Below are positions 3,260 through 42,265 of a stretch of 64,000 nucleotides of DNA, in pieces. Every line of letters starts with the position of its first letter. Position 1 is the first letter of the stretch. Under the pieces are notes generated by a model. That model was not told where the DNA came from, made no database searches, and saw only the letters and a program-made list of their open reading frames with translations. Location of the stretch: assembly GCA_000002445.1 (NCBI GenBank), contig CP000071.1:1632001-1696000 (forward strand), written 5' to 3'. Origin of the DNA: Trypanosoma brucei. Taxonomy: Eukaryota. The translations under genes were made by a program, and so were the position numbers.

Positions 3260-3646
3260 AGGCAACTCAATGAGGCGGTTTAGTCCAGTAGTTACGTTTT
3301 ATTACTGCTGTGGTGTTATTATTTTGCATCACGATACGTTTTGATTCCTGTATCGAAGATAAAAAAAGTTTCTTCCCCATTACCATCTCGGTTTTTGATC
3401 CACCCACATTATAGTCGCTGTCGCTGTTTCTATCTTTGCATCTTTCATTTACTTTCTCCCAAACATCTACGTCAAACCAAAGAAACTTTGTGTCGGCGCG
3501 GTTAAACAAGAAAAAAGGAGTGACCGCATTGATTGGTTTTGGTTGCCGAGCAAGTCGGGTGTCGTGTACGCACCATTCGAGAAAGGGTGGTAGTGAGGGC
3601 GCAGAGCGATCCTTCGAGGGGTGTCGACGTGCATATTAAGGAATAA

Positions 3647-12048: not shown

Positions 12049-15000
12049 ATGCTTGAAAAGTACCTCAGCTCCATTATTGTGCCCTACTTGTCACAGTTTG
12101 TGGAAAACTTGGATTCGAAACAACTAAATGTTGACTTGTGGAATGGCAATGTTGTGCTCAAGGATTTAATGCTGAAGAAGAGCGTGCTTGAGGCACTAAT
12201 CCAGGGCGATCCCATCGGTGATAACTTCTCTTTTGAGGGTGCAACGAAAGCAGCACCAACACCTGGTGTGAACCCGGCTCCGCGCCTTCCGTTAACGGTA
12301 CAACGTGGCATTTGTAAGAGGGTCAACCTGGTGGTACCGTACACACAATTGCGATCGAAGCCTGTAGTTATGGAAATAGGTGAGTTACTTATATGTGTCA
12401 AGGGTAATACGGAATGCCGTGACGTGGTGCTGAGTAAGGCGGCAAAGCTCGACGCCGCAGCAGCACGGAAGTCACGTGAGCTGGAACAATTTGAGGCAGA
12501 GCGAAGGCGTACGAGGGAGAACAACGCAAACAATAGCGCTGGCGCAGCTGCTGCCACCAGTGCAGGTGCTGCTGCGGACACTACAGAGAAGGCACCGGGA
12601 GCAACCACCGGGGCCTCGGTGACTTCTTCGGCTACGGAGAAGGGGAAGGGAAAGGACGGTTATCTCTCTCGTCTGGGGGAGCTTGTAGTAAATAACATAG
12701 TCATTAAAGTTCAGAGTGTGCATGTTCGTTACGAAGATGAGGCCACTAAGACTGTGGCTGGTGTGATACTCGGTGATGTCAGATTGTTTACGGTCGATCT
12801 TTTCACGGGAAATGAAAAATTTGTCGACCCTGTAGGGATGCGGCGCATGACAAAAAGGTTGGAGTTCGCCGGCTTGCAATGCTATTGCGACGACCCAGCG
12901 CGATACGAACTGAATCCCCATGGTTTCTTCATATCGAGGGTTAACGATATGTCAAAGTGGGTGATCGCGATGAGGGAACGTGTCGAGGAAGGTGATGTTG
13001 AACATTCAACCATCGTTGGACCCGTGAAGGGTCATGTGGATGTGAATTTGATCTTAAAAAACTTTATTAGGGACCTCATTTGGGAACCGTACTTAAAGGT
13101 GCGGATGAGGTTGGATAGTTTCCAGTCGAAGTTTAATCGTGCCCAATACCTTACACTAATCCGCACCATCTCTTTGTTAAGCAACTGGACCAGTCTAACA
13201 GAGGTTTTGTCGCGGCGGCCAAACGTACCAGTTACTGGAAATGCTTGTGCATGGTGGCGCTATGCAATTAAGGCAGTACGATCTGTAACGGCCGCCCCGA
13301 AACGTGAGAGATTGTTGCAGCGCATCTCCGAAGTCTGCATTGTGGACTACCACGTCCTCTACCGCGATGTTGTGAGGAAAACTGAGATGTCACCGGAGAA
13401 GCAGCGAGCATACCGCTTTATTACCCGTTTCATGACAGTACCTGACATGATTGCCGGTCGAAAGTATGTTTATGCACAACTGGCCAACGCCATTCAACTC
13501 AAGCGCAAGGACACCGAAGCAAAGAAGGCCGAAGCGCAACCTGCTGAGGAAGGACCCAAAAAGGGGGGATGGTTGTCTTGGATTCGTCGTCAGCATAATG
13601 ATCCGGAACCTCAGGAGGACGAGGAAGCCCGCGCGCTTGAGGAACTTGAGCGGGAATATGGTCTTGATCCTGGTGAAGCAAATGGAAGTGATACAGGAGA
13701 AGAAAATGAGGAGGAGAAGCTACCGGAATCGTACTGCTGGTTTGATGCTCAGTTCGAACTCTCTATGCACCACACCACTCTCTATTTGTCAAAGACTCAG
13801 AAACTTGACTTGGTACTTCATGATGTGGGTCTCTTAGTAAAAACTTTTAATGCCCCAAACTCCGTGCAGGTGCGAATAGTCACAGATAATCTCACATTGT
13901 CGAACCCAGTGGAGGATGAAACGCTACGAGAACGGTTGCCGTCGCTTGTTGAAGGTTTGCCCTTCCGTTGTGGCCCAAGCAGTGAGGATCTTGGCGTGGT
14001 TACTGAACGTTCCCGTTCGTGGAACAGTGTTCCACTACTGGAGTGTAGTGCTGCGCTTAACCCGGTAGAGCAACCCATTGAAGACACACACCTTGATTTT
14101 ACTATGAATATGCGTCTACTTCCGTTGCGCGTCGTTGCTGATCCGCCAACTATCGATGCTATTGTGCGCTTTTTTCATGTTCCCAAAGGGCTCGACGTTG
14201 GATATGTTGTGGGTAGGACAAAGGACTTTGCGCTTACGGTCGGTCAAGCTGCCTCCACCGAGTTGCGTCAGGCTATGACTAACACAAAGGGCTACAAAAT
14301 CTCTTTGGATGCTGCAGGACCTCACATAATTTTCCCCAAAACTCTGAGAGGGGCTTTGGATGAGCCAGCGCTGGCTGTGTCATTAGGGCATGCCATGTTT
14401 GACACGCAGCCCTTGACAGAGACTGAGAAACAGCAACGACTATTAGCGGCGCAGGCTGGTGGGCAAAATGAAGAGTGGCATTATTATTCTAGCACAGCTG
14501 ACTTCTCTAAATTCTTCATCGAACTCGGGACGCTGGGGTCAGTGTTGGAGCGACAAGGCAGTGGTTTCATGCTCGTACCGGAGATAGCGTACTCTGCTTC
14601 AGTATTACAGCTTATAGACAGAGATATGGCTAACAACCGGGAGTGGCTCATTGTGCGGATGGTAGTTCCCAAGTTGTGCATGGCGTGTTCGGTGGGTCAG
14701 GCCCATGTCCTGTCGAACATGGTAGAACAGTGGGTCGCGTACTTGGCCGCTGCTGGAACAGAAGATGACAACGATCCGGTCGCAATGCCGTCGGTAGACA
14801 CTGCAGTGCTCGGGGCTGAAAAACTTTTGGCGGCGGCGGGTTCCCCTGGAGGAATAGGTCCAACTGTTGGTGTAGGAGGTTCGACTTCAGCGGGCGCACC
14901 CTCCGCCGAGGGGTCATACTTCAACTCCTGTACAGGGAATGCATCACGGCCTCGGAAAGCGAAAAACTCGGAATCGGATTCGGATGACGCCCTCGCGAGC

Positions 15001-18000
15001 ACAACACCGGTAGTAGCCCTCCGGACGCAAGCAGACTTACCGTATGTTCGGTTACACGCCACAATCGAGGAGCTTGGTATTTCTATTTTTGAGGATGACT
15101 TGGAAACACGACAACCCCTTGTTGCGCCTCGCTTCACCATGGCCTTCAGGACAGCTCTTATGACACTACATGTGCGCACACAGAAGCAGCTTCTGGAGAT
15201 GGTACTCAACGATCCGTATTGCCTTGATGCTAGGGAACCGGATCACCTTGTAATTGCTGGTCCTTCAATCCACTGTAACGCAGAAATGGCAGCAGACATG
15301 CCCATGCATGTTGATATCGTAATGCAACCTCCACTAAAATTTTGCCTTAACACGTCGTGCATGGAACTCCTTGAGGCGGTGGTCGACATCACAAACCTCA
15401 TAGCCACTACTTCGGATGCCATTCCACAACTTACGAGGAGCGACGAAGGTGGTGTAGACACCGTAAAGTTTGAAAGGGGCGCAAAGATTCCCCTTGACGT
15501 TATGCAGGAGTTGCAAATTAAGCAAGTGCAGCATATGTTCGGAATGCCAGATACACCTGTGGTGCAGATGTCACTGCGCATTGCTGGCATCGCAACAGTG
15601 GAGTTGATGGAACGTTGTGTGGAGAGGCAACCTTCACAAGAGCAATCGGCAGGAAAGGGTGAGAGGCAACCAAGGGATTACCCCATAGCGTACGCAACCT
15701 TCAAGGAGGTGAACTTATTCTTGAGGAAAAACTCCGTCACGATGGAAGTCAACGGTAGCGTACAGCAGGTGGAGGTGTCACTCTCCGAAGTGCACGACGT
15801 TTCCCCATCAAATCGCGTTGTGCTGCAACGTCGAGTAGCACCACCTCATGCCTCGCCCATAAAGTCCAAGGTGACAGAACCGTTGGAAACTGGGGCAACG
15901 GTGGCAGTAGCCGCAATGTCACCAGGGTCTGGCAGCGGCCAGTTGGCTTCTTCGCAGGAAAACTTACCACCCAGACTTCAATCTTCAGAGAGTGAGCAAC
16001 GGCAACATCTTACGTTCACGTATCGCACCAGCCGCCCGGTGATGCCCATATTTCAAACTGGTGCCGATGGGAAGCGTAAATTAACCAATGTCTCAGAACT
16101 GCGGTTTTCCGGCTTTGCGGAGTTAGAATTCAGCTCCAGCGACATACATTTAGACATTCACAGCGTCATTGTTCTTTCGCAATATTTTTGTACAGGTCTC
16201 TTTGCGGAGTTGTCGGGTCTTTCGTTAAGGACGCGCTACGACGGTCGAGTTCCCGCTGGGCCGTCACTAATTGAACCACCGCAGCTGCTGACAAGCGTGC
16301 GAGTGTTTGCACAGGACCTGACATTCAACCTCCCTGTCGATGCGAGAGTGGAGAACGACATCGAGCGGTTTCGTGTTTCAGTGGATCATGTTGCGGTGCA
16401 AAGTAGCCTTCTTTCAGCTGAAGAAAAACAATCTATGAACATTTCCCTGCGCGAAATACGCCTTCTGCACGGGTTTCCCCACGGAGTCGACGCCGAGCGA
16501 ATGCAATCAGCGGCGGAGGGGAAGGTGTTAATGCCGACAACATCGCTCGATGTCTCCCTAAAAAGCCCACTTGATCAGTTGTCTGATGAACCGCTGCGTG
16601 TTGAATTGCGGGGAGATGAACTGGTGCTTGCCCTAACAGAGGGAGACATTGTGGATCTGTGCCGCCTTATTAGTGGGAACCTGACGCGCGCGCCTCCCCC
16701 ACCACCACCAGCGCCCCCGCGTTTGCAGTCGCTTACTGGAAGTCGCCGTGAATCCTCAGAGGTAGGCGAGGCACGACTGCCTTCCGTCGCCGCTTGCTCG
16801 CCGCAAGAGATAACCGAGGCGCAGAGTGGAGCTCATGTAGTGTGGCGAGCCGGGCGCTTAACACTGTCGCTGCTCGACACATCAAGTAGTGGCGCTCGTT
16901 TTCGTCTTGAGGGCAACGGCTTCACTTTTGATCAGAGGGCCCCTGGCGGTGAACTCAGTTTGCGATGGGATAAGCTTGAACTGCACGATGTTTATGAAGA
17001 AACGTGCCGGGCGACGATGTTACTATGTGGTTGTGGCCGCGTCGAACTGGGCAACCTTCCGGCCCCATGGTGTGATCCGTGCAAGGGAGCAAACAAAGAA
17101 GGAATGAATGACCAAGTTGACAAAATCAACGCGACGACAGGGGACGGTACTAGTTCCGTGGACTTTGAAGATCTCACACCAGAGCAATTACATCAATTAT
17201 TGCAAGAACAACTGAACCAGCCGCAAGATTCTGCATCCGCCGGTGGTCTTTCAAGAGACTTTGTCGATATTCAAACACTTGTCGTTGACTTCACGTTGGA
17301 GCGCTTTGCTGTTTCAGACCAGTGGCTTGCTGTGTACGATTTTGTTTGCAATCAGGCGGTAGTTGAGGCACTGCAACACGTAGCGTCGACGGATGATTCT
17401 GTTCCTCCGCGGAGGCTGTGCCAAGGGTTCAAGGAACCCTCTGAGGGTATGGAAGGGGCCAAACCATTTCGATGTATTGTGACAACGCGTGCGGTCAACG
17501 TGCCGTTCCTAACGATTTCGCGGGAGGAGTTTCTTGAAGCGGATATCACGTCGTTGCACGCCGACGTCATAACGTATCTTAATACCACGACGGTAACTGT
17601 TAGAATGCATGACTTGGTGGTACGGCATTCTGCCTCAGGTGAGCGTGTGCTGTTTAAGAAGCACGACACCGACGACTTGCATTTGTCCTCGTTTGACAAC
17701 ACCCAGGAAAATCTTCTTCTGACAGGCATAAACTCAGCGCGCTCTCCGCGTACGCCTGCGGGGGGGACGACAACAGCACCAGCTGCTGCATTAACCAATC
17801 CCACAACAACAACTGCTTCACCTAATCAACCCGTAGGGACAGCCACTCCAGATATTTTAAACCTGAGGTGCCATATTGGTGGAACACCTGAAAACCCACA
17901 ACAGCGTGTAAGAATTGCAGTAGGTGAATTGGCAACTCTCTTTTCCGCACCGCTTGTTGCACAGATTGTGGAATATTGCGCGCAGCCAGAGCAGCCAATA

Positions 18001-21000
18001 GCCAAAATATCGAATTTGGGAGTTATGCGGGAGCAACGCGAGCGGCTAGCTCGCGCTGCTGACCAGATGGTCAACAATGGTGCCATAAATGTTCAGGTGT
18101 TATGGCAGCAGCCCTGCATTATATTTGCGGGGAACGCGCAAGAGTTAGCGAACAAATCGCGCAATATTGAGGCTCATCTGGGTCTAATGGGATCGGAAAT
18201 ATTATTTGACAAGCGGAGCGGAAGCTGCACGGTCTCAACTAAAGTGGTTGGAGTGTCCATTCCGGAAATGTTGGAGGAAACAACAGTGCGCTTAAGATAC
18301 AAACTTGAAGAACGCAACGCAGACATCTCCGTGGTCGTAGACAAAGCAACGGCGCTGCTTCATCCAGTGGGTGTAGAGAAACTCCTTTGGGTTATTCAGT
18401 GGAATCTCATGGTGCCACCCGATGACAGTGGCAACAGTGTAGCTAATAATGTCACGCATTCCGGTGCAGTTGCGGGGGCTTGCGAAAAGGAAGGAATTAA
18501 AGAACCAAATGTTCTGAACGAGCGAAAGGAGCAGGTAGTCGGTGAGCGCTCAACTGATCTAGTGGAGGAACCCATTACCCAAAATATCCATGTAGAAGCC
18601 TCCTCTATTGTCCTTGCAATGCATGATGTTTTGGGTTTGCATGTGCACACAACCGCACTCGGTGGGCTCAAGATTCACGTCAACGCTGCTGGGGATGTGG
18701 ATATTGCCGTTAAGTCTGTGACAACAGTGGAGCACTTTACCAACCAGCGGCTCATGGAAGCCTGCGGTGAAGGGGCTCTCACGGTGCACGTGAAGAGTGC
18801 GGAGAAGACAACTTCTGTCTGCATGGCCGAGGTTAATTTTAGGGTGGTGCCGAAAGCGGTAGGAAGTCTTCTCAACATGTTATTGTCTGTACAGCTTCCG
18901 CCTCCCTTGCCGTCAGTATCAGGGGTCCCTACGACTGTTTTGCCATCAGAAACCGGTTGGGAGCATCGACTTTCTGTTAGATTAAATTGCTGCCGAACCC
19001 TAGCTCTTCATGACGGTCAAGAGGTATTTCTTGCCGAGTACAAGGATTTGAATGTTGATTTGTGCTCGTTTGCCGACGCGTCAAGTACACTCACCGTTTC
19101 GATTGGCTGGCTCGTCGTCCAGAACCTGTACTCTAAGAAAGTGAAGGGATCTGAATTAATGCTACCGATGGATGGGGAGGAGAATGGGTCCCCTGCCGTC
19201 ATTGATTTTGTGCTGACTACATCGCCCCCAAATAACAGAAGCGTCACTAGGGATTGTGATTGTGCTGCTGCACCCTGTTATGTACAGCAGCTGCGATGCC
19301 GAATTTCCTCTTTCTTGATTGTTTCGGTGCCGGATGTTACATATGCAGCTGTCCAGGTAACTGCAGATATATTGGGAAACATATCAGATGTAAACCGTGG
19401 GAAAGCGTACGACTATGTAGCGGAGAAAACGGCCCAGCAGATACGCGAGAGACAGCAACTAACCGAAGTGGAGGTGGCCATCGGACGTCCCTGCATTAAG
19501 CTTCTCGACGCTGTTGATTCACAAAATGTGGTTGAGGTGTTTCTGGGCGATTTTGTTGTAAGGAACAAATTGCGCTGTGCTGCTGCTCAGGGAAGTAACG
19601 TAGCAATGTGCGCCCCACATGCTGAGGTGTTTTCGCTCAGTATAAACCGCCTATCTCTTAACATTCTCGGTGGGTCTGCGTTCAACCATAGCAGCAGCAT
19701 CGAGGTGGAGTTCTCTCGGTTAATCACTGATGATGTCATCCCCACTGTGGCATCAGATGAATCTGTTGGGGTGCCAAATGATGAGATGATGAGCCTGAAT
19801 GTTTCCGTACCAATGCTGTCTGCGAGGTTAACGGAGGCACAGTTGAATACCTTACTTGACGTAGTGGGGGCCTTTAGCTCTTTTGGCTGTTCCCCACCTG
19901 TTTGGGGAGATAGTTGTGGGGCATTTCCATCTTCTCACTCACAGGGGGCGAGCGGTCATCACGACGGAAGCATGAGCGCCACGAGTTTCCACACCTCTAG
20001 TGTAGTTTCGCCTTCAGGGGGGGCTGCTGGAAAGAGGCGGGCGAAGGACCCCTTGCTAGGACTGCAGGTGCAGGGGGCTGCACATGGTTGTGGACTACCC
20101 ACGGGCGATGTGAACGTAACTGCCGCAACAGCTGATGGCACCATAACCAACTCTGAGTCTGTCACCAATGAAGTTAGCACCTCAATGAAGATAAGCGCTG
20201 TAATGCAACGTCTCGTCGCAAACATCGACGACAAATTTGAAATCACCGTTGACCATCTTACCGTGGAACAGGTTACCACGTCAAGGCTGAGTAGAACTGC
20301 AAACGGAAACGATAATTCGAACGCAGTTCCCGTCCCACCACTCACCAATAGCAACAGCAAATTATTCCTGGAAGGTCTGGTGATTCGGCACTGCTCTTGG
20401 GGTAGTTTCGATGACAATAACGAGAGGGCTTCTCTCTTTGCTTCGAGGGATGTTGAAGTTGCTTCTGTGACCGTCATGAGTGTCAACGGAAACAGCCGGG
20501 AAACTGATTCGAGCACCACTGTTCGTTTGGGATGCCTGCATACCACGATCACTCCACAGATCTTGGTCGATGCCAGGAACATATTGTACGGCCCGTTCTG
20601 CATGAAAGTTGCTCGAACCCCGCTTAGCCCCATTCCTATATGTCGTCTTACTGACGATGTTTATGTGCTAAAGAGCAACTTGTCACTCGACCCTACCCAC
20701 ATCCTCATAACAGGCAACAAGTCACGTTGCTCTTATGTTCTGGATCTCAACCAATATAAGTTGTGTATCTTGGGTCCGCCAGCCCCGCACATTGTGTTAG
20801 ATGACAACTGCGAACTTACAATTACTAATGGCTGCATAGTGGTTCCAGGCATGTACGCGCTCAGCTCCTTTGTTAGCTTTGGTGGTAACGCATCTGTGTT
20901 CACAACAAAATCGTGTGTGATTGAAAAAATAGCACACCACGACCGGGTTGTCGCAGCGGTCTTTCGCCCGGTCAGGCGTCGCAGCAGAGGCGGAGTTGAG

Positions 21001-24000
21001 TCAACTGCTGCACCTACTCATAAAAACATGGCGGCCCCATCTGTGGATCCCGCGAAGCAACCAGTTACTTCAATACAGCCGCCGCAGCAACAACCACAAG
21101 TGGGTGCCGTATCACTGAATAGCACATCAGTCATCCCTCAATGTCAATCAAACATCGTACCACGTCAGGCTAGTGGTGAAGAGGTGAGGTCAACGGTGAG
21201 TGTAGAGTGTAAGGATGTTATGCTACGCGTCATGGCTGAGGAAGCAGAAGACATAGGTGTTTGCATGTTTATGGCTCTGGATTTCACTACAACGCGTCAG
21301 CTGGATGATGGTGTACTGAAACAAAACTGTGCCAAAGTGACGTTGAGAGACATTCGCACATCCACAAGGGATGAAGTTGCGCTCCAACCCTCTACGTTTA
21401 CTGTGGCTGTCGCCGGAACCGACAGGGTGTCTGTCACGGGATCTTTAGCATCTCAGGGATTGTGTCTACGCGTGTCGTTGGTGCGTTCTCTCGTTGAGTT
21501 GGTTAAGGACACTATGAGTGCTTTCACTCATGAAGGGGAAGTTCCAGTGTACCCAGTTAATGTGGTGCTCGAGGACGAAAACTTAAAACCGCTTGTCGAT
21601 GTACCCGCACTGGGGGAGTGTCGTATATGCGAGATGCAGTGTGCCAAGCTTGCCACAAGTGAAGAGGGCCCTGGGGTATTGTGCTATCGTTGTTGCACAG
21701 GGAAAATGGCCCTACCAGAAACGAACGTGTGGTTTGCCGTCGACCCCGTTGACATTTTATTGCTGAGCGATAGCGGTGGTATGTTGCAGTTACGCTGTGT
21801 AGCCCCTTTTGAGACATGCTATACGGCGGATAAGGGTCTTCATACCCACATGAAGCTTCAGGTACGCAACCTCAATGACAACGCCGCTGTGTGGGAGCCG
21901 CTTGTGGAGCATATTACGATGACGTTTGGGGGCGATGTGCGGACGTCAGCATACTGGATTAAGGTGGAGAAATTCGACTATGTGTTGTCTCCGATGAACG
22001 TGAAATTACTAAGGAAGCTTTCAGAGGACTTCTCCCCCACATCAGAGCTGCAGAGACAACTTCGAAGGAAGTTCCGCGGGAACGGACACAGTTTACTTCA
22101 AACAGATGATGAGACCTTGGATGAGGTTGGTGGCCGAGGCACTAGTGCCGAAGTAGCAGAGGGGGTTTGTGATGATGGACATAAATATGTGGCGTATGTG
22201 GAGGTGCATAACTATTTCAGTGAATCTTTAGAGTTTGATGGACTACCGATAGAGCCACGCGGACGCTCCGTAGCAACGAATGTGAATAAAAATTATGGTA
22301 CTTTGCGTCGAACACACAGCGTCAGTTCCGTCGGTGTGACTATCAACTGGTTCCGATCGCCTCTGTACGTACGCTACCCCGATATGGTGGTGAGGGTGCA
22401 AACGACGCTTTCGCACAGAGAAGGCTCTAAACGCCTCTTCCGTGTTGTGTCCCTTCGGTGCTACCCGGTTCATCGCACCGACATGATTATTTGTCTGAAG
22501 AACAACGTCAGCACCCACGTGGAGGTCGTAAGCGGCGTGCCCGCTGTAGGCCCGCAGGAGAGTTTCTACTTTCACCCGGACTTCTCGCTTGACCGAAAAC
22601 TTCAGTTGCGACCTGTTCAGACCGTTGATGAAGAGTATACCGAGGCTCTTGCTGTAGGTACTGGTGCAGCCCCAACTTTGAGTTCACTATTGAGCGCCTC
22701 CTCCACCACGCTCCACTCCCGTGGCGTGAAACGGAGGGAGAAACTCTTTGTTTTTACGATACATGAACGGCAGGAGGACATCTGGGCCGGTACACCCATG
22801 TTTGTCATTTCCATTGAACCACATATTTGTATTGAGAACAACCTCCCATGCAGCGTTCGCTTCAGGATCCACAAGGACGGACCGGGAAAGCAGAACCTTT
22901 TCAGTTCTGTAGTGAAGGCAGCGGAGCGTGCTGATGTTATTCAGGGTGAGACAAGTGTGGACAGGGCGTGTTTTCACTTTGAGGTGCATCACGAAGACAA
23001 AGACAGCAATGGTGTGATATACTCGACACCGACACCAGTAAAACTCAAGCCGCGCACAACACATGTTGTTCTTAGGGCTCAACTAGGCGATTCACGCGAG
23101 CTTCGAATCAACGTGCGATGTAAGGACAATAAAATTGTGCTTAGCACGCCGTACTCTATCGTTAACTTTGCGCCGCTTCCGATAGAGCTACGGGAGTGTA
23201 GTTCTTCGGGCGTCGAGATACCATGCGCGGGGACAAATTTTCGCTTTTTACCAAAACAAATGAAAAGTGCGTATCCGGCGTCGCCCCAAAGTGCCGATGC
23301 GCGAGAGTTCTTTGTGAACGTTCACATCATGGACTACGAAGCGCGTGCTATTCCCCTTCACGTGCAAGACAGTAGTGCGATCGTGTTAGGGGAAAGGATG
23401 GATAAAGGATCGGCCGAGAGGGGCACCAGCAATCGCGGTCCTATACTCTTTCACCTAATGTGCACGATGCAAGTGGACATGTACGGCTCACGCTTTGTCA
23501 CCATCGTGCCACGGTGGACCATTGTCAACCGAACACCCCGGGACCTATACGTTGCCCAGGCTTTGTTGGATGCGGCCCCGCCTGGGTCATCTTCTAGTGG
23601 AAAGGACACTCGCACTGTCGGTGGAGTGCCAGATAAAGTTAGTGGAAGGTGTTTCCGTTGCCGTTATGACATCGCTCAACATATACCTCCAAATTCCTCC
23701 ACACCGCTCTTCGTAACGGCTAGGTGCTGCTCGGAGCTGGGCTACGCTGTTTTCGTGCTTGCGGATAAGGGTGCCCGGGTATATGGTAATCCCGTGAGTC
23801 TGGAAGAGGTCGCTAGTGAGTTAGTGGTGGCCCATGGGGTATGTGAGGGTGGGGAAGCTAAGCGGGCCAGTGTGGTTGTAGAAACATCTGTGGTAGTTGA
23901 CGGACCATACACCTTCTTCACTGTGCAAGACCTTCCCGTGTCACCCTATATCCTTCTTAACCGAACACCGCTGTCGTTGGAGTTGCACGGCGCGCATGGC

Positions 24001-26481
24001 CATCGGCTGGCGCGCGTCGGACCCGGTTGCTCAACGCCGTTCGTAATGAACCCGCGTGATAAACCAACCCGCACTCGCATCACCCTCGAGTCGGGAACCT
24101 GGGACACAACCGCTACCGCGGATGTTGGTGAAGAACCCCCCAAATGGGAAGGAGAGCACCCGACCCCCTTCGTCGAGTTCGACTTCGACAGACCCATGAG
24201 ACAGGAAGAAAGGTACAATGAACTAGATATTGAGTATGTTGTTGGCTTTGGGCCATTCGGGCAGCAGATTGTCGAACTTAAAGTCGCCACCAGCGCCGGT
24301 ATGTGTACAACTAGAGGCGCTGCTGGTGGTGGCGTGCTGAACCCCCTGGAATCAGACAGTATTTTGAACGAACGCTCCCTCCGCGTGTATCAGCCACCAC
24401 CCCCGACTCCATTAGATGTGGTTATGAACTTGTCCTATGTTACCTGTTCGCTTGTGACGATGGACCAAGAAATTCTTCTTGTTGCAATCGAAGATGTTCG
24501 TTGCCACGTTACCAGAAAGGATACTAAGGAAACGGTTAATTTCACTGTGAAGAATATTCAAATCGACAACCAATGTGAGGAGAAACCAGTATATGAGGTT
24601 TGCCTTGTGGCTATCCGCGCCGCTAACGATGTGCAGTGCATTTCTGCCTATGTGGAACGTGAGATAGTTCCCGCCCGGGCGCTGCTTTGTGTGAATCAAG
24701 TTTGTCTCAACGTTGTTCCGATTGCTGTTCGATTATCTGATAACGTGCTAGTCGCAATTGCCAGCTTTGGGGCGCAGCTCACTGTAGAGCAACCCATGCG
24801 CGCTCAAGCTCCGACGGAACAGGAGCTCTTTGATAACGCCCCAGTAACCGTGGGTGCCATGAACACACGTGTAATCCTTCGGTGCATGGTTGTAAACCCG
24901 TTGGAAGTGCGAGTATGGTTCGAACGCGAGGCCGGTGGGCATGACTTCATTCGGGAGCATGTGCGTGTTCGAACCGCAGCATTGCTGTCCATGATGATTC
25001 AGTCATGTGAAGATGTGCATATCAATTTGCCTGGCCTCAACATAGAGAGACGCTCCGGTAGTGCAGGTGTACTTTGGGAGTGGCTTCTGAAAGTATACTG
25101 GGATAAGTCCTATACGCTTATGGCAGGCTTGTTCTACCAATACGCTTCTTCTCTTCCGCTAATCGGAGCTCCTATCAAACTGTTCTCCGGTTTTGGCGCC
25201 GGTGCACTCAAGTTCTTCCAGGAGCCCGTCGCCGGTTTGCAGGAGTCACCAAAGGCGTTTGCCCGTGGCTTGGCAGCTGGCTCCGCCGCTTTGCTGAGGG
25301 AAACTGCCGGTGGAGGACTCGGCGCCGTATCAAACCTCGCAAAAACCGGTGCTAGCATTATAGATGTCTTTGGAGATGGTTCTCGTACCTCCTCGCGTAG
25401 TGGTGGAGCTGGAGCGTGTGTACTGCATGGCCTTGCCAGCGGTGTTAAAGGTGTTGTGAACGCGCCTGTGGAGGGAGCCACTCAGGGTGGTGCTCGCGGT
25501 TTGCTTTTTGGGATGGGTAAAGGAGCGCTTGGACTCGTGACTAAACCCGTTGCGGGTCTGTTGGCAGATGTTTCCCGACTGACAGGCACAGCGGCAAGGG
25601 CATGCGACTCCTCTCACCTTCCCAAGGTAAGGCGTCGAAGGGGGTTGCGTGAATTTCATGCGAATGGAGCGGTGGCCGAGCGCAACTCGCTGCTCACCGT
25701 CTTTGAGTACGAGCGCGGGGAGCATGACGGTTCGAAGTGGACGGTTGGGTCTGAGAGTTCGTGGTCTGATGACAAACCGCAGTGGTTGCCGTGTACAAAG
25801 GAACAGATGCAACGAAAGCAGGGAGGGGGACCGCGGCCAGATATGTGGCAGGTTCAACGCTATGGCACGAATTTTGAGGGGTGGAAGTACAGCAAAAATT
25901 ATCATGGTAAATATACCAGAGAACAGCTCCCGAGGTCGAAGGTCCGACGTCGACGTTGGGTGTCGGTAATCAGACCAATGCCCACCTCAGCCATACTCCG
26001 ACTTGTACACATTGCTACTAAAAACCCAACGTGCACCTCCTCTTCCGATTCCGTATCAGATGGCGTTTTCTGCTCTGCACAACTCAAACATGGATCCGTG
26101 TCGTCGGCAACAGCATCTTCTTTTAGGGGCTCGAGTGGTTCTCCCGCGGACGATTCATTTCCCGGAACAAAATTCAAACCCGAGAGCCCCAAGGAGGCCT
26201 TTCGTACGGTGGTGCTCTACGAATACGAGGCAAAGGTTGTGTTTGTTTGGTCAAGCAGGGTTTTACCGCAAGGTCGTTCCCCGTGGGAGGACTCTGAGGG
26301 TTGCCGTGTGCAGCGCAGATCCGACTACAACCCCCCACACGGTTGGTCGTGGGATTCCGATTGGTTCCTCTCCAGGGGTGCCGCCGGTCCTGACGGATGG
26401 GAATACGTTGGAAAAGAGAGTCACACCTCTACCGAGTTGAGGCGCCGTTGCTGGAAGCGAAGAATCCGAAAGGTGCTGTAG
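12049..26481 (+). CDS. VPS13: VPS13-family bridge-like lipid transfer protein (4810 aa)
   Basis: N-terminus is a textbook chorein-N domain: 'MLEKYLSSIIVPYLSQFVENLDSKQLNVDLWNGNVVLKDLMLKKSVLEAL' (compare VPS13 '[34 protein letters not shown]'). Uninterrupted 14.4-kb ORF. The C-terminus carries two DysF-like repeats (see findings). Confidence 0.8.
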   Translation: MLEKYLSSIIVPYLSQFVENLDSKQLNVDLWNGNVVLKDLMLKKSVLEALIQGDPIGDNFSFEGATKAAPTPGVNPAPRLPLTVQRGICKRVNLVVPYTQLRSKPVVMEIGELLICVKGNTECRDVVLSKAAKLDAAAARKSRELEQFEAERRRTRENNANNSAGAAAATSAGAAADTTEKAPGATTGASVTSSATEKGKGKDGYLSRLGELVVNNIVIKVQSVHVRYEDEATKTVAGVILGDVRLFTVDLFTGNEKFVDPVGMRRMTKRLEFAGLQCYCDDPARYELNPHGFFISRVNDMSKWVIAMRERVEEGDVEHSTIVGPVKGHVDVNLILKNFIRDLIWEPYLKVRMRLDSFQSKFNRAQYLTLIRTISLLSNWTSLTEVLSRRPNVPVTGNACAWWRYAIKAVRSVTAAPKRERLLQRISEVCIVDYHVLYRDVVRKTEMSPEKQRAYRFITRFMTVPDMIAGRKYVYAQLANAIQLKRKDTEAKKAEAQPAEEGPKKGGWLSWIRRQHNDPEPQEDEEARALEELEREYGLDPGEANGSDTGEENEEEKLPESYCWFDAQFELSMHHTTLYLSKTQKLDLVLHDVGLLVKTFNAPNSVQVRIVTDNLTLSNPVEDETLRERLPSLVEGLPFRCGPSSEDLGVVTERSRSWNSVPLLECSAALNPVEQPIEDTHLDFTMNMRLLPLRVVADPPTIDAIVRFFHVPKGLDVGYVVGRTKDFALTVGQAASTELRQAMTNTKGYKISLDAAGPHIIFPKTLRGALDEPALAVSLGHAMFDTQPLTETEKQQRLLAAQAGGQNEEWHYYSSTADFSKFFIELGTLGSVLERQGSGFMLVPEIAYSASVLQLIDRDMANNREWLIVRMVVPKLCMACSVGQAHVLSNMVEQWVAYLAAAGTEDDNDPVAMPSVDTAVLGAEKLLAAAGSPGGIGPTVGVGGSTSAGAPSAEGSYFNSCTGNASRPRKAKNSESDSDDALASTTPVVALRTQADLPYVRLHATIEELGISIFEDDLETRQPLVAPRFTMAFRTALMTLHVRTQKQLLEMVLNDPYCLDAREPDHLVIAGPSIHCNAEMAADMPMHVDIVMQPPLKFCLNTSCMELLEAVVDITNLIATTSDAIPQLTRSDEGGVDTVKFERGAKIPLDVMQELQIKQVQHMFGMPDTPVVQMSLRIAGIATVELMERCVERQPSQEQSAGKGERQPRDYPIAYATFKEVNLFLRKNSVTMEVNGSVQQVEVSLSEVHDVSPSNRVVLQRRVAPPHASPIKSKVTEPLETGATVAVAAMSPGSGSGQLASSQENLPPRLQSSESEQRQHLTFTYRTSRPVMPIFQTGADGKRKLTNVSELRFSGFAELEFSSSDIHLDIHSVIVLSQYFCTGLFAELSGLSLRTRYDGRVPAGPSLIEPPQLLTSVRVFAQDLTFNLPVDARVENDIERFRVSVDHVAVQSSLLSAEEKQSMNISLREIRLLHGFPHGVDAERMQSAAEGKVLMPTTSLDVSLKSPLDQLSDEPLRVELRGDELVLALTEGDIVDLCRLISGNLTRAPPPPPPAPPRLQSLTGSRRESSEVGEARLPSVAACSPQEITEAQSGAHVVWRAGRLTLSLLDTSSSGARFRLEGNGFTFDQRAPGGELSLRWDKLELHDVYEETCRATMLLCGCGRVELGNLPAPWCDPCKGANKEGMNDQVDKINATTGDGTSSVDFEDLTPEQLHQLLQEQLNQPQDSASAGGLSRDFVDIQTLVVDFTLERFAVSDQWLAVYDFVCNQAVVEALQHVASTDDSVPPRRLCQGFKEPSEGMEGAKPFRCIVTTRAVNVPFLTISREEFLEADITSLHADVITYLNTTTVTVRMHDLVVRHSASGERVLFKKHDTDDLHLSSFDNTQENLLLTGINSARSPRTPAGGTTTAPAAALTNPTTTTASPNQPVGTATPDILNLRCHIGGTPENPQQRVRIAVGELATLFSAPLVAQIVEYCAQPEQPIAKISNLGVMREQRERLARAADQMVNNGAINVQVLWQQPCIIFAGNAQELANKSRNIEAHLGLMGSEILFDKRSGSCTVSTKVVGVSIPEMLEETTVRLRYKLEERNADISVVVDKATALLHPVGVEKLLWVIQWNLMVPPDDSGNSVANNVTHSGAVAGACEKEGIKEPNVLNERKEQVVGERSTDLVEEPITQNIHVEASSIVLAMHDVLGLHVHTTALGGLKIHVNAAGDVDIAVKSVTTVEHFTNQRLMEACGEGALTVHVKSAEKTTSVCMAEVNFRVVPKAVGSLLNMLLSVQLPPPLPSVSGVPTTVLPSETGWEHRLSVRLNCCRTLALHDGQEVFLAEYKDLNVDLCSFADASSTLTVSIGWLVVQNLYSKKVKGSELMLPMDGEENGSPAVIDFVLTTSPPNNRSVTRDCDCAAAPCYVQQLRCRISSFLIVSVPDVTYAAVQVTADILGNISDVNRGKAYDYVAEKTAQQIRERQQLTEVEVAIGRPCIKLLDAVDSQNVVEVFLGDFVVRNKLRCAAAQGSNVAMCAPHAEVFSLSINRLSLNILGGSAFNHSSSIEVEFSRLITDDVIPTVASDESVGVPNDEMMSLNVSVPMLSARLTEAQLNTLLDVVGAFSSFGCSPPVWGDSCGAFPSSHSQGASGHHDGSMSATSFHTSSVVSPSGGAAGKRRAKDPLLGLQVQGAAHGCGLPTGDVNVTAATADGTITNSESVTNEVSTSMKISAVMQRLVANIDDKFEITVDHLTVEQVTTSRLSRTANGNDNSNAVPVPPLTNSNSKLFLEGLVIRHCSWGSFDDNNERASLFASRDVEVASVTVMSVNGNSRETDSSTTVRLGCLHTTITPQILVDARNILYGPFCMKVARTPLSPIPICRLTDDVYVLKSNLSLDPTHILITGNKSRCSYVLDLNQYKLCILGPPAPHIVLDDNCELTITNGCIVVPGMYALSSFVSFGGNASVFTTKSCVIEKIAHHDRVVAAVFRPVRRRSRGGVESTAAPTHKNMAAPSVDPAKQPVTSIQPPQQQPQVGAVSLNSTSVIPQCQSNIVPRQASGEEVRSTVSVECKDVMLRVMAEEAEDIGVCMFMALDFTTTRQLDDGVLKQNCAKVTLRDIRTSTRDEVALQPSTFTVAVAGTDRVSVTGSLASQGLCLRVSLVRSLVELVKDTMSAFTHEGEVPVYPVNVVLEDENLKPLVDVPALGECRICEMQCAKLATSEEGPGVLCYRCCTGKMALPETNVWFAVDPVDILLLSDSGGMLQLRCVAPFETCYTADKGLHTHMKLQVRNLNDNAAVWEPLVEHITMTFGGDVRTSAYWIKVEKFDYVLSPMNVKLLRKLSEDFSPTSELQRQLRRKFRGNGHSLLQTDDETLDEVGGRGTSAEVAEGVCDDGHKYVAYVEVHNYFSESLEFDGLPIEPRGRSVATNVNKNYGTLRRTHSVSSVGVTINWFRSPLYVRYPDMVVRVQTTLSHREGSKRLFRVVSLRCYPVHRTDMIICLKNNVSTHVEVVSGVPAVGPQESFYFHPDFSLDRKLQLRPVQTVDEEYTEALAVGTGAAPTLSSLLSASSTTLHSRGVKRREKLFVFTIHERQEDIWAGTPMFVISIEPHICIENNLPCSVRFRIHKDGPGKQNLFSSVVKAAERADVIQGETSVDRACFHFEVHHEDKDSNGVIYSTPTPVKLKPRTTHVVLRAQLGDSRELRINVRCKDNKIVLSTPYSIVNFAPLPIELRECSSSGVEIPCAGTNFRFLPKQMKSAYPASPQSADAREFFVNVHIMDYEARAIPLHVQDSSAIVLGERMDKGSAERGTSNRGPILFHLMCTMQVDMYGSRFVTIVPRWTIVNRTPRDLYVAQALLDAAPPGSSSSGKDTRTVGGVPDKVSGRCFRCRYDIAQHIPPNSSTPLFVTARCCSELGYAVFVLADKGARVYGNPVSLEEVASELVVAHGVCEGGEAKRASVVVETSVVVDGPYTFFTVQDLPVSPYILLNRTPLSLELHGAHGHRLARVGPGCSTPFVMNPRDKPTRTRITLESGTWDTTATADVGEEPPKWEGEHPTPFVEFDFDRPMRQEERYNELDIEYVVGFGPFGQQIVELKVATSAGMCTTRGAAGGGVLNPLESDSILNERSLRVYQPPPPTPLDVVMNLSYVTCSLVTMDQEILLVAIEDVRCHVTRKDTKETVNFTVKNIQIDNQCEEKPVYEVCLVAIRAANDVQCISAYVEREIVPARALLCVNQVCLNVVPIAVRLSDNVLVAIASFGAQLTVEQPMRAQAPTEQELFDNAPVTVGAMNTRVILRCMVVNPLEVRVWFEREAGGHDFIREHVRVRTAALLSMMIQSCEDVHINLPGLNIERRSGSAGVLWEWLLKVYWDKSYTLMAGLFYQYASSLPLIGAPIKLFSGFGAGALKFFQEPVAGLQESPKAFARGLAAGSAALLRETAGGGLGAVSNLAKTGASIIDVFGDGSRTSSRSGGAGACVLHGLASGVKGVVNAPVEGATQGGARGLLFGMGKGALGLVTKPVAGLLADVSRLTGTAARACDSSHLPKVRRRRGLREFHANGAVAERNSLLTVFEYERGEHDGSKWTVGSESSWSDDKPQWLPCTKEQMQRKQGGGPRPDMWQVQRYGTNFEGWKYSKNYHGKYTREQLPRSKVRRRRWVSVIRPMPTSAILRLVHIATKNPTCTSSSDSVSDGVFCSAQLKHGSVSSATASSFRGSSGSPADDSFPGTKFKPESPKEAFRTVVLYEYEAKVVFVWSSRVLPQGRSPWEDSEGCRVQRRSDYNPPHGWSWDSDWFLSRGAAGPDGWEYVGKESHTSTELRRRCWKRRIRKVL

Positions 26482-41092: not shown

Positions 41093-42265
41093 ATGGCGCG
41101 CGTTGAACTGCCCGCGTTGATCGACTGCCATGTGCACTTTCGCGAGCCTGGTCTTGAATACAAGGGCGATATGCAGAGCGAAGCCGCTGCCGCATACGCT
41201 GGTGGCATTAATGTAGTGTGTGATATGCCCAATACCCAGCCGCCTACGCAGACAATTGAAGCTTTCGCGGACAAGGTGCTACGCGCCAGTAGAGTGAAGT
41301 CACGATGTGACATGCGGTTCTTCTTTGGTGCTACGGCACACGAACATATAGAGCAACTGGAGTTGATGTGGACGCAACCGCAACACGCTGAGTTGCGGAG
41401 GCGTTGCGCAGGCCTCAAATTGTACTTGGACAATTCCACTGGTAACATGAAGAGCAGTGGAGAGGTCGTTGAGGCGGCGTTTGCACTGTGCGGAAGACTT
41501 GGAATTCCACTTGTAGCGCACTGTGAGCATGCCGAGCACAATGAGGCGGCTTCCGCGGCCCATGCGTACACGGGACCGGCTTCCCACTCCAGGCGGCGAC
41601 CCGCCGAGTCGGAGGTTGCATCAATATCCCAAGCAATTGAGCTTGCGGGTCGCTATTCCACACAGTTACATATTGCACACTTGTCGACCGCCGGCGGTGT
41701 TGAGTGCTTGCGGCGGGCGCGGGCTGCGAGTGCTGCCGGCAAAAAAGGTGTTCCGCGTATTACAGCGGAGGTGACGCCGCACCACTTATTTCTAACGGAG
41801 GGTGACTATTGCGGTTGTGGAAGCCGGGTGAAGGTGAATCCGCCTGTGCGGCAGTGGAGCGACGTGGAGCAGCTGTGGGAGGCGGTGTTAGACGGAACGG
41901 TAGATTGTATCGCCACCGATCACGCGCCACACACGCTGCAAGACAAAAGTGATGAGTCGAACCCGCCGAGTGGAATGCCGTCTATTGAGCTGGTCGTGCC
42001 ACTCCTGCTGACAGTGTGCGCCGGACGGTGGCCGCACCCAACAACATCCATGCCAAAGGCCTTGCAAGAGCGTAAGTTGACGGTGGATGACATTGTGCGG
42101 CTCATGCATACAAACCCAAATCGAATATTCGGTTTGGATGTGACGGAAGAGAAGAAGCGGACATTTGACACAAGTGTGGAATGGGTTGTAGAGGAATCAC
42201 AGCTACATTCCAAGTGCAAGTGGTCACCGTATGCAAACTGGAAGCTTGTGGGGAAAGTAATGTGA
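41093..42265 (+). CDS. PYR3: Dihydroorotase (cyclic amidohydrolase superfamily)
   Basis: Metal-binding 'LIDCHVHFREPG' (D-x-H-x-H), 'VVCDMPNT', Asp-bearing 'IATDHAPH' and overall ~390-aa length match type I dihydroorotases. The PYR3 symbol follows trypanosomatid pyrimidine-pathway naming and is tentative. Confidence 0.75.
   Translation: MARVELPALIDCHVHFREPGLEYKGDMQSEAAAAYAGGINVVCDMPNTQPPTQTIEAFADKVLRASRVKSRCDMRFFFGATAHEHIEQLELMWTQPQHAELRRRCAGLKLYLDNSTGNMKSSGEVVEAAFALCGRLGIPLVAHCEHAEHNEAASAAHAYTGPASHSRRRPAESEVASISQAIELAGRYSTQLHIAHLSTAGGVECLRRARAASAAGKKGVPRITAEVTPHHLFLTEGDYCGCGSRVKVNPPVRQWSDVEQLWEAVLDGTVDCIATDHAPHTLQDKSDESNPPSGMPSIELVVPLLLTVCAGRWPHPTTSMPKALQERKLTVDDIVRLMHTNPNRIFGLDVTEEKKRTFDTSVEWVVEESQLHSKCKWSPYANWKLVGKVM

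What the first reader, a model, noticed from the sequence alone, without database searches (positions are those of the whole stretch)
25860..26481. VPS13-family giant protein ends in two DysF (dysferlin-domain)-like repeats
The last ~200 residues of the 4810-aa chorein-N protein contain two units with the hallmark aromatic/poly-Arg pattern of DysFN/DysFC motifs: 'FEGWKYSKNYHGKYTREQLPRSKVRRRRWVSVIR', then 'PHGWSWDSDWFLS…GWEYVGKESHTSTELRRRCWKRRIRK'. Compare dysferlin 'GWEYS…RRRRWVRLRRR'. Canonical VPS13 proteins end in ATG2_C/PH modules, not DysF. As I recall, a dysferlin-domain-only protein in budding yeast (Spo73) acts together with Vps13 during prospore-membrane growth. A natural VPS13-DysF fusion would be 'Rosetta-stone' evidence for that partnership and an unusual domain architecture for a bridge-like lipid transfer protein.
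Basis: partly seen in the sequence, partly recalled or inferred. Interest (0 to 1): 0.65.

Follow-up and report, generated by a model that had tools for sequence, protein, structure and literature searches.

The report
Trypanosome VPS13 ending in two DysF domains
The giant lipid-bridge protein VPS13 of Trypanosoma brucei (gene Tb927.8.5580) really does end in two dysferlin-type (DysF) domains where other VPS13 proteins have a PH domain; this arrangement is shared by kinetoplastids and diplonemids, is already flagged by automatic database annotation, and has not been studied.

Summary
ORF 12049..26481 (+) encodes a 4810-aa VPS13 and is an exact match to T. brucei TREU927 XP_847388.1 / Q57X24. 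A published tagging primer proves it is Tb927.8.5580.

After the ATG_C helices the protein carries two complete DysF domains:
- **DysF1:** aa 4548-4642, divergent.
- **Linker:** about 74 aa, disordered.
- **DysF2:** aa 4717-4808, canonical.

Only 6 residues separate the ATG_C alignment end from DysF1, so the canonical C-terminal PH domain is absent. The same VPS13-DysF-DysF ending occurs in T. vivax, T. congolense, Leishmania, Phytomonas, Bodo, Papus and diplonemids.

Novelty is limited. UniProt already names the protein "Peroxin/Ferlin domain-containing", and plant VPS13M is published with a DysF inside its VAB domain. The C-terminal tandem that replaces PH in Euglenozoa appears undescribed.

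The likely role is a basic, lipid-binding membrane anchor at the acceptor end of the bridge. This is inferred, not shown.

The parts
12049..26481 (+). Complete ORF of the VPS13 homologue Tb927.8.5580 (4810 aa, 526.4 kDa), including the stop codon
   Evidence: ORF list and translation. Exact sequence match to T. brucei TREU927 XP_847388.1/Q57X24. Molecular weight 526.4 kDa equals the '526 kDa Vps13 orthologue' of PMC5256885. That paper's Tb927.8.5580 tagging primer matches 26395-26478 exactly.
12049..14454 (+). N-terminal chorein / VPS13_N region (best Pfam stretch aa 80-802)
   Evidence: PF12624 VPS13_N, E 2e-57, 195 bits. Homologues align from residue 1.
22546..23202 (+). VAB (VPS13 adaptor-binding) domain, best-scoring Pfam stretch aa 3500-3718
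   Evidence: PF25036 VPS13_VAB, E 3.1e-12, 46.2 bits, cut-off 22.6.
25135..25671 (+). ATG_C-type amphipathic-helix region (aa 4363-4541), ending in the conserved R-x-R..R-x-F motif
   Evidence: phmmer against PDB aligns it to human VPS13C residues 3414-3605 and to VPS13A (E 1.8e-13). The alignment stops where the VPS13C PH domain would follow.
25690..25974 (+). DysF1: divergent DysF domain (aa 4548-4642, pI 9.9, 6 Trp) at the position of the canonical PH domain
   Evidence: A kinetoplastid-only unit-1 profile against the unit-2 profile gives hhalign 98.8%, E 5.7e-17. The same profile matches PF06398-annotated proteins from the list end to end. The TECPR1 DysF C-half aligns to FEGWKY...RRRRWV. 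In the two-unit model there are long N- and C-terminal strands, with 10-residue-block mean pLDDT 83 over model residues 11-20 and 88-89 over 61-100. Weak points: Pfam alone gives E 0.47, and the stand-alone model failed.
25975..26196 (+). Ser-rich linker between the two DysF domains (aa 4643-4716), length-variable and not conserved; a helix is predicted at its start
   Evidence: pLDDT below 50 for model residues 122-170; helix at model residues 107-119. Unalignable and of very different length in homologues, with roughly 270 aa between the two matched units in L. major.
26197..26472 (+). DysF2: canonical DysF domain (aa 4717-4808, pI 9.6, 7 Trp); the protein ends 2 residues later

Best explanation
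**Shown.** The gene is T. brucei Tb927.8.5580, a bona fide VPS13 bridge-like lipid transfer protein. Its C-terminal module order is VAB, ATG_C helices, DysF1, disordered linker, DysF2, stop. The canonical C-terminal PH domain is missing, and DysF1 sits exactly where it would be. This ending is conserved in kinetoplastids (Trypanosoma, Leishmania, Phytomonas, Bodo, Papus). Diplonemid homologues also carry the tandem DysF, so it is an old, selected feature of a euglenozoan VPS13 and not an annotation accident.

**Inferred mechanism.** In canonical VPS13 the ATG_C helices and the PH domain hold the C-terminal (acceptor-membrane) end of the lipid groove on its target membrane. Here two strongly basic, Trp-rich DysF 'fingers' on a flexible tether take over the PH role. 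They would bind the cytosolic leaflet of the target membrane directly, as shown for other DysF domains: Pex30 and dysferlin bind phosphatidic acid, TECPR1 binds sphingomyelin, and Spo73 needs a basic loop for prospore-membrane binding. Two domains in tandem would give avidity or coincidence detection.

**Likely target membrane.** The target probably lies in the post-Golgi / endosomal / flagellar-pocket region. The tagged protein localises between kinetoplast and nucleus and co-purified with the exocyst subunit Exo99.

**Lipid specificity is unknown.** The TECPR1 sphingomyelin-binding residues are not conserved.

**Wider reading.** The fusion puts in cis what yeast does in trans, where the DysF-only protein Spo73 is part of the Vps13 adaptor complex.
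For: **Identity**
- Exact protein match to XP_847388.1/Q57X24.
- Exact primer match at 26395-26478.
- Molecular weight 526.4 kDa against the 526 kDa stated in PMC5256885.

**VPS13 membership**
- VPS13_N and VAB Pfam hits.
- ATG_C aligned to solved human VPS13C/A.

**DysF2**
- Pfam hit above the cut-off.
- Foldseek top 13 PDB hits are all DysF domains, then E jumps above 4.

**DysF1**
- Profile-profile comparison and hmmsearch hits to unrelated PF06398 proteins.

**Family-level profile**
- The profile of both units retrieves 59 proteins, most of them annotated PF06398, including TECPR1.

**No PH domain**
- The alignment to VPS13C ends at aa 4541 (VPS13C residue 3605 of 3777).
- DysF1's first strand starts at aa 4548.
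- The linker is disordered and the protein ends 2 aa after DysF2.

**Conservation**
- 12 giant proteins have the match at their extreme C-terminus and VPS13 homology along their length.
- Named taxa: T. vivax, T. congolense, L. major, Bodo saltans, Phytomonas, Papus, Diplonema and Sulcionema.
- The Diplonema papillatum homologue scores VPS13_N 3e-106, VAB 3e-36 and Pex24p 4e-22 with 2 stretches.

**Basic character**
- pI 9.9 for DysF1 and 9.6 for DysF2.

**Lipid binding by DysF domains elsewhere**
- PMC12101078, PMC10476172, PMC4863634.

**Localisation and Exo99 pull-out**
- PMC5256885.
Against: - No experiment or computation here shows lipid binding by these two domains.
- DysF1 is degenerate. 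It keeps 2 of 4 stacking Trp and 2 of 4 stacking Arg, Pfam gives E 0.47, and it could not be modelled alone (mean pLDDT 46).
- In trypanosomatids the loop between GWEY and RRRCW in DysF2 is shortened by 8 alignment positions relative to most other homologues in A1. In TECPR1 the equivalent loop carries the sphingomyelin-binding K152/K153/W154, so the tip may not bind lipid in the known way.
- In yeast, Vps13 localisation does not depend on Spo73, so DysF need not be a targeting device.
- The published localisation used a C-terminal HA tag placed directly after DysF2 (primer). The tag could itself disturb this module.
- Whether T. brucei has other VPS13 paralogues that keep a PH domain was not tested.
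Confidence: 0.6

Rival explanations
1. The tandem DysF is mainly a protein-docking module, for example for the exocyst subunit Exo99, a Rab, or a Spo71-like PH protein. On this view it is a built-in adaptor and not a lipid binder.
For: - Tb927.8.5580 was recovered in Exo99 immunoisolations (PMC5256885).
- In yeast the DysF protein Spo73 works through protein contacts with Spo71 (PMC8372973).
- The canonical VPS13 PH domain that DysF1 replaces is listed among partner-binding sites (Levine 2022).
Against: - No interaction has been mapped to the C-terminus.
- Every DysF domain with a defined biochemical activity in the papers read binds lipid.
- The high pI and exposed Trp fit membrane binding.
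Confidence: 0.22
2. The DysF pair is a regulatory lipid sensor that gates or relieves inhibition of lipid flow through the groove. The model is the Spo71-Spo73 complex, which lets yeast Vps13 work on PI4P-rich membrane. On this view it is not the primary anchor.
For: - Lowering PI4P bypasses loss of Spo73 but not loss of Vps13 (PMC8372973).
- Vps13 still reaches the prospore membrane without Spo73 (PMC4863634).
- The ATG_C helices, which can anchor the C-terminus on their own, are retained here.
Against: This is purely an analogy. There are no data on PI4P or any other lipid for the trypanosome protein, and loss of the PH domain suggests that an anchoring function had to be replaced.
Confidence: 0.15
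3. The W/R-rich segments are not DysF domains. They are either compositional chance or part of the ordinary VPS13 ATG_C/PH module. Alternatively, the fusion is an assembly or annotation artefact that joins VPS13 to a neighbouring DysF-only gene.
For: - The whole-protein Pfam score is marginal: 26.1 against a cut-off of 26.8.
- In T. congolense IL3000 the DysF2 part is a separate 122-aa database entry.
Against: - The reading frame is continuous in the window.
- The same sequence (4810 aa) is recorded for T. b. brucei, and 4810-aa cluster members come from T. b. gambiense, T. b. equiperdum and T. equiperdum.
- The fusion recurs in T. vivax, Leishmania, Bodo, Papus and diplonemids.
- The T. congolense split is a frameshift inside DysF1.
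- The gene was tagged at this exact C-terminus and gave a product localising as a discrete signal.
Confidence: 0.02

Closest known systems
Viridiplantae VPS13M (Leterme et al. 2023, PMC10683392)
   Same: A VPS13 lipid-bridge protein carrying a DysF/Pex24 (IPR010482) accessory domain in cis. It is interpreted there as a possible new localisation determinant.
   Different: The plant protein has a single DysF inserted inside VAB module 2, and it keeps ATG_C, PH and many other extra domains. The trypanosome protein has two DysF in tandem at the extreme C-terminus in place of the PH domain. The different insertion sites suggest independent acquisitions; this is my inference and no phylogeny was done.
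[quoted passage not shown]
   Same: It has the same two components, VPS13 plus a DysF domain, acting at the acceptor membrane during membrane expansion. Spo73 needs a basic loop for membrane binding.
   Different: In yeast the components are separate polypeptides. Spo73 interacts with Spo71, and Spo71 is the subunit reported to contact Vps13 directly. Yeast Vps13 keeps its PH domain. Spo73 was not among the relatives retrieved by the DysF profile at E <= 1e-5, so no specific orthology is shown.
Canonical VPS13A/C C-terminus (VAB, ATG_C, PH)
   Same: The VAB and ATG_C parts are present and alignable to solved human VPS13C and VPS13A.
   Different: The PH domain is absent. DysF1 starts 7 residues after the point where the alignment to VPS13C ends.
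TECPR1 (two DysF domains plus PH; sphingomyelin sensor), PDB 8p5p
   Different: The TECPR1 DysF domains are separated by other folded domains. Its sphingomyelin-binding K152/K153/W154 correspond to Q-L-P in DysF1 and fall in a shortened loop in DysF2. TECPR1 is also not a lipid transfer protein.
Pex30/Pex23-family DysF domains and ferlin DysF domains
   Different: Those DysF domains sit on membrane-anchored proteins (reticulon-homology domain or C-terminal TM). In ferlins they are nested, one inside the other. Here they are tandem, on a soluble bridge protein.

Membership tests
VPS13 family (bridge-like lipid transfer proteins) | N-terminal chorein / VPS13_N region | tested here: met
   PF12624, E 2e-57, 195 bits against a cut-off of 80.
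VPS13 family (bridge-like lipid transfer proteins) | VAB (adaptor-binding) repeat domain, specific to VPS13 among RBG proteins | tested here: met
   PF25036, E 3.1e-12, 46.2 bits against a cut-off of 22.6.
VPS13 family (bridge-like lipid transfer proteins) | ATG_C amphipathic helices after the VAB | tested here: met
   aa 4363-4541 align to human VPS13C 3414-3605 and to VPS13A, E 1.8e-13. No Pfam ATG_C hit was reported.
VPS13 family (bridge-like lipid transfer proteins) | C-terminal PH domain | tested here: not met
VPS13 family (bridge-like lipid transfer proteins) | Continuous hydrophobic RBG groove and lipid transfer activity | not tested
   The protein's length and its homology along the whole length to other VPS13s imply a groove.
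DysF domain (Pfam PF06398 Pex24p / InterPro IPR010482 / SMART DysFN+DysFC) | Significant match to the family HMM | tested here: met
   DysF2 scores 29.9 bits, E 4e-7, against a cut-off of 26.8, and the last 300 aa score 33.6 bits. DysF1 alone is not significant (9.9 bits, E 0.47). It is met for DysF1 only at profile level (hhalign 98.8%, E 5.7e-17, and hmmsearch hits to PF06398 proteins).
DysF domain (Pfam PF06398 Pex24p / InterPro IPR010482 / SMART DysFN+DysFC) | Fold: two long antiparallel beta-strands joined by a long loop that wraps the sheet | tested here: met
DysF domain (Pfam PF06398 Pex24p / InterPro IPR010482 / SMART DysFN+DysFC) | Trp/Arg stacking ladder (TECPR1 W116, W118, W122, W138; R159, R161, R165, R167) | tested here: met
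   Read from the sequence against PMC10476172 and the alignments. DysF2 keeps 4 of 4 Trp (GWSWDSDW, GWEY) and 3 of 4 Arg (RRRCWKR). DysF1 keeps 2 of 4 Trp (DMW, EGW) and 2 of 4 Arg (RRRRW). W61, W73, R94-96, W98, W207, W229, W233, R259-261 and W263 are at least 90% conserved in the family.
DysF domain (Pfam PF06398 Pex24p / InterPro IPR010482 / SMART DysFN+DysFC) | Direct membrane-lipid binding | not testable with these tools
   Known for Pex30, dysferlin (phosphatidic acid) and TECPR1 (sphingomyelin). The TECPR1 binding residues are not conserved here.
Rosetta-stone (gene-fusion) pair VPS13 + Spo73-type DysF protein | The two components are fused in one lineage, and are separate but functionally linked in another | tested here: inconclusive
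   The fusion is shown in Euglenozoa and published for plants. The yeast functional link is published. However, specific relatedness of these DysF domains to Spo73 was not shown (Spo73 is absent), and Spo73's reported interaction is with Spo71.

The most novel reading that the evidence does not exclude
DysF would be a recurrent, ancient partner module of the acceptor end of VPS13 bridges. It is supplied in trans in fungi (Spo73, perhaps Pex30-family proteins) and captured in cis at least twice: inside the VAB in green plants, and as a C-terminal tandem that displaced the PH domain in the common ancestor of kinetoplastids and diplonemids. In trypanosomes this DysF pair would read a specific lipid of post-Golgi / flagellar-pocket membranes and thereby couple bulk lipid supply to exocyst-dependent membrane traffic. 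That would give the first direct handle on what DysF domains do for VPS13.
Probability: 0.3. Interest if true: 0.6.

Novelty: new variant of a known kind. Interest (0 to 1): 0.42.

Why it matters
How VPS13 bridges choose and engage their acceptor membrane is an open question, and so is what DysF domains do. A VPS13 in which a DysF pair has replaced the PH domain is a natural experiment on both. It is conserved across a deep eukaryotic clade that includes major parasites. It strengthens the view that the yeast Vps13-Spo73 and plant VPS13M-DysF associations reflect a general functional coupling.

It also offers a tractable system. T. brucei allows endogenous tagging and RNAi, and the protein already has a known localisation and a candidate link to the exocyst. 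Truncation and lipid-binding tests are therefore feasible.

The value is limited because the domain co-occurrence is already visible in automatic annotation, and accessory-domain swapping in VPS13 is a known theme.

Tried and rejected
- **Single-sequence homologue searches** of the C-terminus with the word-indexed tool found nothing. The first was probably swamped by Gly/Ala-rich low complexity; the second shared too few exact words. The exhaustive HMMER search solved this.
- **Stand-alone structure prediction of DysF1** with a 15-sequence alignment gave mean pLDDT 46. Its fold search gave only noise. DysF1 therefore has no independent structural confirmation.
- **The afdb50 fold library** was unavailable.
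- **A PH domain in diplonemids.** I tried to show that the ~125-aa conserved segment between ATG_C and DysF1 in diplonemid homologues is the retained PH domain. A profile search against PDB sequences gave only insignificant hits (E >= 0.5), so this stays a guess.
- **The high-GC metagenomic homologue P0026.** I tried to learn whether it belongs to a full VPS13 outside Euglenozoa. No VPS13 body was detectable within 10 kb upstream by tblastn or Pfam.
- **The glycosome idea.** I considered an ER-glycosome contact role because PF06398 is named after peroxins. I rejected it as the leading idea because the tagged protein localises to the region between kinetoplast and nucleus, and no paper links VPS13 with glycosomes.
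- **Literature searches** for VPS13 with kinetoplastid and dysferlin found no paper. Levine 2022 does not mention DysF.

Full report
**1. The observation**

The window has one very long ORF, 12049..26481 on the + strand, 4810 codons. The stated start (25860) is one base out of frame; codon 4605 begins at 25861.

All 17 ORFs of 250 aa or more in the window lie on the + strand. The eight flanking ORFs scanned against Pfam encode eukaryotic housekeeping domains (JAB/MPN, Fe-S assembly, transaldolase, UCH and others). GC content is about 50%. This is what a kinetoplastid polycistronic unit looks like.

**2. Identity of the gene**

- An exact-sequence look-up finds the protein as T. brucei brucei TREU927 XP_847388.1 / UniProt Q57X24, on a 2.48-Mb record. 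Further 4810-aa members of the same 90%-identity cluster come from T. b. gambiense, T. b. equiperdum and T. equiperdum.
- The calculated mass is 526.4 kDa.
- Boehm et al. 2017 (PMC5256885) describe "Tb927.8.5580 ... a 526 kDa protein orthologous to Vps13". They recovered it in Exo99 (exocyst) immunoisolations and localised it to the membrane-trafficking region between kinetoplast and nucleus.
- Their C-terminal tagging primer for Tb927.8.5580 matches window 26395-26478 exactly. These are the last 28 codons of the ORF.

The gene is therefore Tb927.8.5580. That paper mentions neither dysferlin nor peroxin domains.

**3. It is a VPS13**

Pfam on the whole protein gives VPS13_N (E 2e-57) and the VPS13-specific VAB domain (E 3e-12). 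Residues 4363-4541 align to the ATG_C helices of the solved human VPS13C (residues 3414-3605 of 3777) and of VPS13A.

**4. The C-terminus is DysF**

The same Pfam run gives PF06398 (Pex24p) at aa 4716-4804 with 26.1 bits, just under the 26.8 cut-off. This model is the DysF/Pex24 domain, IPR010482 (Leterme et al. 2023). Scored on the last 300 aa it reaches 33.6 bits with two stretches. Unit 2 alone reaches 29.9 bits, E 4e-7. Unit 1 alone is not significant, at 9.9 bits, E 0.47.

phmmer against PDB sequences returns only four weak matches, all of them DysF-containing proteins: the TECPR1 N-terminal DysF, myoferlin and dysferlin.

**5. Homologues**

The word-indexed search failed with single sequences. 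The exhaustive HMMER search with aa 4556-4810 found 39 proteins. Twelve of them are 2700-5600 aa long and carry the match at their very C-terminus.

A local phmmer of the whole window protein shows these giants are VPS13 homologues along their length. Source names identify the following taxa:
- T. congolense (59% identity)
- T. vivax
- Leishmania major Q4QEU1
- Phytomonas
- Bodo saltans A0A0S4IMT3
- the prokinetoplastid Papus
- the diplonemids Diplonema papillatum, D. ambulator and Sulcionema

The Diplonema protein scores VPS13_N 3e-106, VAB 3e-36 and Pex24p 4e-22 in two stretches. The fusion is thus conserved across kinetoplastids and is also present in diplonemids.

**6. Two complete DysF domains**

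The alignment of C-termini (A1) shows two full units. Each has the N-terminal YE(N/Y)(Q/E)R strand, the LLPxD..W loop, GWxY, and the RRRxW strand.

- **Unit 1 (aa 4548-4642):** it lacks the P-x-GW-x-W motif in kinetoplastids.
- **Unit 2 (aa 4717-4808):** it is canonical.

Evidence that unit 1 is also DysF:
- A profile of unit 1 from kinetoplastid-type sequences only matches the unit-2 profile with 98.8% probability, E 5.7e-17 over 89 columns.
- The same profile matches proteins annotated PF06398, end to end. These are a TECPR1-type protein and oomycete VASt-DysF proteins, drawn from the hit list.

The profile of both units retrieves 59 proteins, most of them PF06398 and including TECPR1.

**7. 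Structure**

AlphaFold2 on aa 4540-4810 with A1 gives mean pLDDT 72. DysF2 has 10-residue-block means of 80-96. DysF1 has block means of 83 over the first long strand and 88-89 over model residues 61-100, but 52-62 in its central loop. The linker is below 50.

Each unit has one long N-terminal and one long C-terminal strand.

- **Foldseek against PDB:** the top 13 hits are all DysF domains (myoferlin, TECPR1 8p5p with TM 0.65, dysferlin 4cah with TM 0.68, myoferlin 2k2o). E then jumps above 4.
- No PH or ATG_C-like hit appears.

A stand-alone model of DysF1 failed (pLDDT 46) and gave no fold matches. DysF1 therefore rests on profile evidence and partial modelling.

**8. The PH domain is gone**

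The alignment to VPS13C ends at window aa 4541, which corresponds to VPS13C residue 3605. This is where the human PH domain follows.

DysF1's first strand begins at aa 4548. The 74-aa linker is disordered and unconserved. The protein stops 2 residues after DysF2. Papus and the bodonid-type sequences show the same direct ATG_C-to-DysF1 junction.

Diplonemid homologues have an extra conserved ~125 aa at this junction. I could not establish its fold.

**9. What is already known**

- UniProt names Q57X24 and the Bodo orthologue "Peroxin/Ferlin domain-containing protein".
- The T. equiperdum product name lists both "N-terminal region of Chorein" and "Integral peroxisomal membrane ...". Automatic annotation therefore already records both domains.
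- Leterme et al. 2023 describe a DysF inserted in VAB module 2 of green-plant VPS13M.
- Levine 2022, the survey of VPS13 accessory domains, does not mention DysF.
- No paper in the library combines VPS13, kinetoplastids and dysferlin.

The C-terminal tandem DysF that replaces PH in Euglenozoa therefore seems undescribed. It is a variant of a known theme.

**10. Mechanism**

Shown: the architecture, its conservation, the basic and Trp-rich character (pI 9.9 and 9.6), and the published localisation and Exo99 association.

Inferred: the DysF pair substitutes for the PH domain as the membrane-engaging module at the acceptor end. The basis is the following set of published findings:
- Pex30 and dysferlin DysF bind phosphatidic acid.
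- TECPR1 DysF binds sphingomyelin through residues at the tip of the finger.
- Spo73 needs a basic loop to reach the prospore membrane.

The TECPR1 sphingomyelin residues K152/K153/W154 correspond to Q-L-P in DysF1. In DysF2 they lie in a loop that trypanosomatids have shortened, so lipid specificity cannot be predicted.

The rivals are a protein-docking role and a regulatory sensor role modelled on Spo71-Spo73 and PI4P. Artefact and chance explanations are excluded.

**11. The Rosetta-stone argument**

[quoted passage not shown] The cis fusions in Euglenozoa and plants are consistent with a general VPS13-DysF functional coupling.

Two caveats apply. Spo73 is reported to interact with Spo71, which is the subunit that contacts Vps13 directly. 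No specific relationship between these DysF domains and Spo73 was found. The argument is supportive, not decisive.

**12. Verdict**

The finding is real and correctly interpreted, and I have refined it: two whole DysF domains, PH lost, ATG_C kept, gene Tb927.8.5580, Euglenozoa-wide. Novelty is moderate because of existing automatic annotation and the plant precedent. Interest 0.42.

Noticed in passing
window 21619-21696 (aa 3191-3216 of the VPS13 ORF): There is a CxxC-x18-CxxCC motif, 'CRICEMQCAKLATSEEGPGVLCYRCC'. It is conserved in T. congolense, T. vivax, L. major, Bodo saltans and one metagenomic homologue. A regex search did not find it in the Diplonema, Papus or P0009 homologues. It looks like a small zinc-ribbon insert upstream of the VAB. 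UniRef calls the T. congolense orthologue 'SWIM-type domain-containing protein'.
   Followed up: partly
window 26395-26478: The published endogenous HA-tagging primer for Tb927.8.5580 (PMC5256885) ends at the last codon, two residues after the final DysF2 strand. The only published localisation therefore used a tag that abuts the domain in question.
   Followed up: yes
window ~26380-26440 (DysF2 loop between GWEY and RRRCW): The Trypanosoma sequences in A1 (window, T. vivax, T. congolense) lack the 'DFPxxF' segment present in this loop in most other A1 homologues, leaving 8 gap columns. The L. major and Phytomonas sequences read directly also look short here. In TECPR1 the equivalent loop carries the sphingomyelin-binding K152/K153/W154.
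   Followed up: partly
P0025 / P0003 (T. congolense IL3000 orthologue): The T. congolense gene model is split. The 4655-aa entry frameshifts inside DysF1 after '...LHRYG'. DysF2 is a separate 122-aa entry named 'TECPR1-like DysF domain-containing protein'. This is probably a sequencing or assembly error, not biology.
   Followed up: partly
L001 10001-11884 (ENA metagenome assembly ERZ25074135, 1.4-Mb contig, 61% GC): A 627-aa ORF (P0026) has ATG_C-like helices, then DysF, a long linker and a second DysF, in the same order as the window protein. No VPS13 body was detectable within 10 kb upstream, and the organism is unknown. It could be a non-euglenozoan example, or a gene with introns.
   Followed up: partly
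P0010 (EukProt 'Colpodella angusta' transcriptome): This is a kinetoplastid-type VPS13 C-terminus (ATG_C end, DysF1, DysF2) filed under an apicomplexan-related predator. It closely resembles the P0015 sequence from a Logan assembly of unknown origin. It is probably prey (bodonid) contamination of that transcriptome. This is my inference and was not tested.
   Followed up: no
diplonemid homologues P0012, P0021, P0028 (about 125 aa before their first DysF): A conserved segment lies between the ATG_C end and DysF1 that kinetoplastids lack. It sits where the canonical PH domain would be. A profile search against PDB sequences gave nothing significant.
   Followed up: partly
P0018 (255 aa): A small protein with what look like MORN-type repeats, followed by a single canonical DysF domain (sequence). 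This is another DysF architecture I did not pursue.
   Followed up: no
window 25330-25905 (- strand): A 191-aa antisense ORF overlaps the ATG_C/DysF1 coding region. It is most likely a chance ORF in a GC-balanced coding region.
   Followed up: no
window 53081-54187 and 41093-42265: Neighbouring genes are exact matches to T. brucei entries named KREPB8 (an RNA-editing complex protein) and dihydroorotase. Together with the other exact matches, this confirms the window as a T. brucei TREU927 chromosomal segment.
   Followed up: yes
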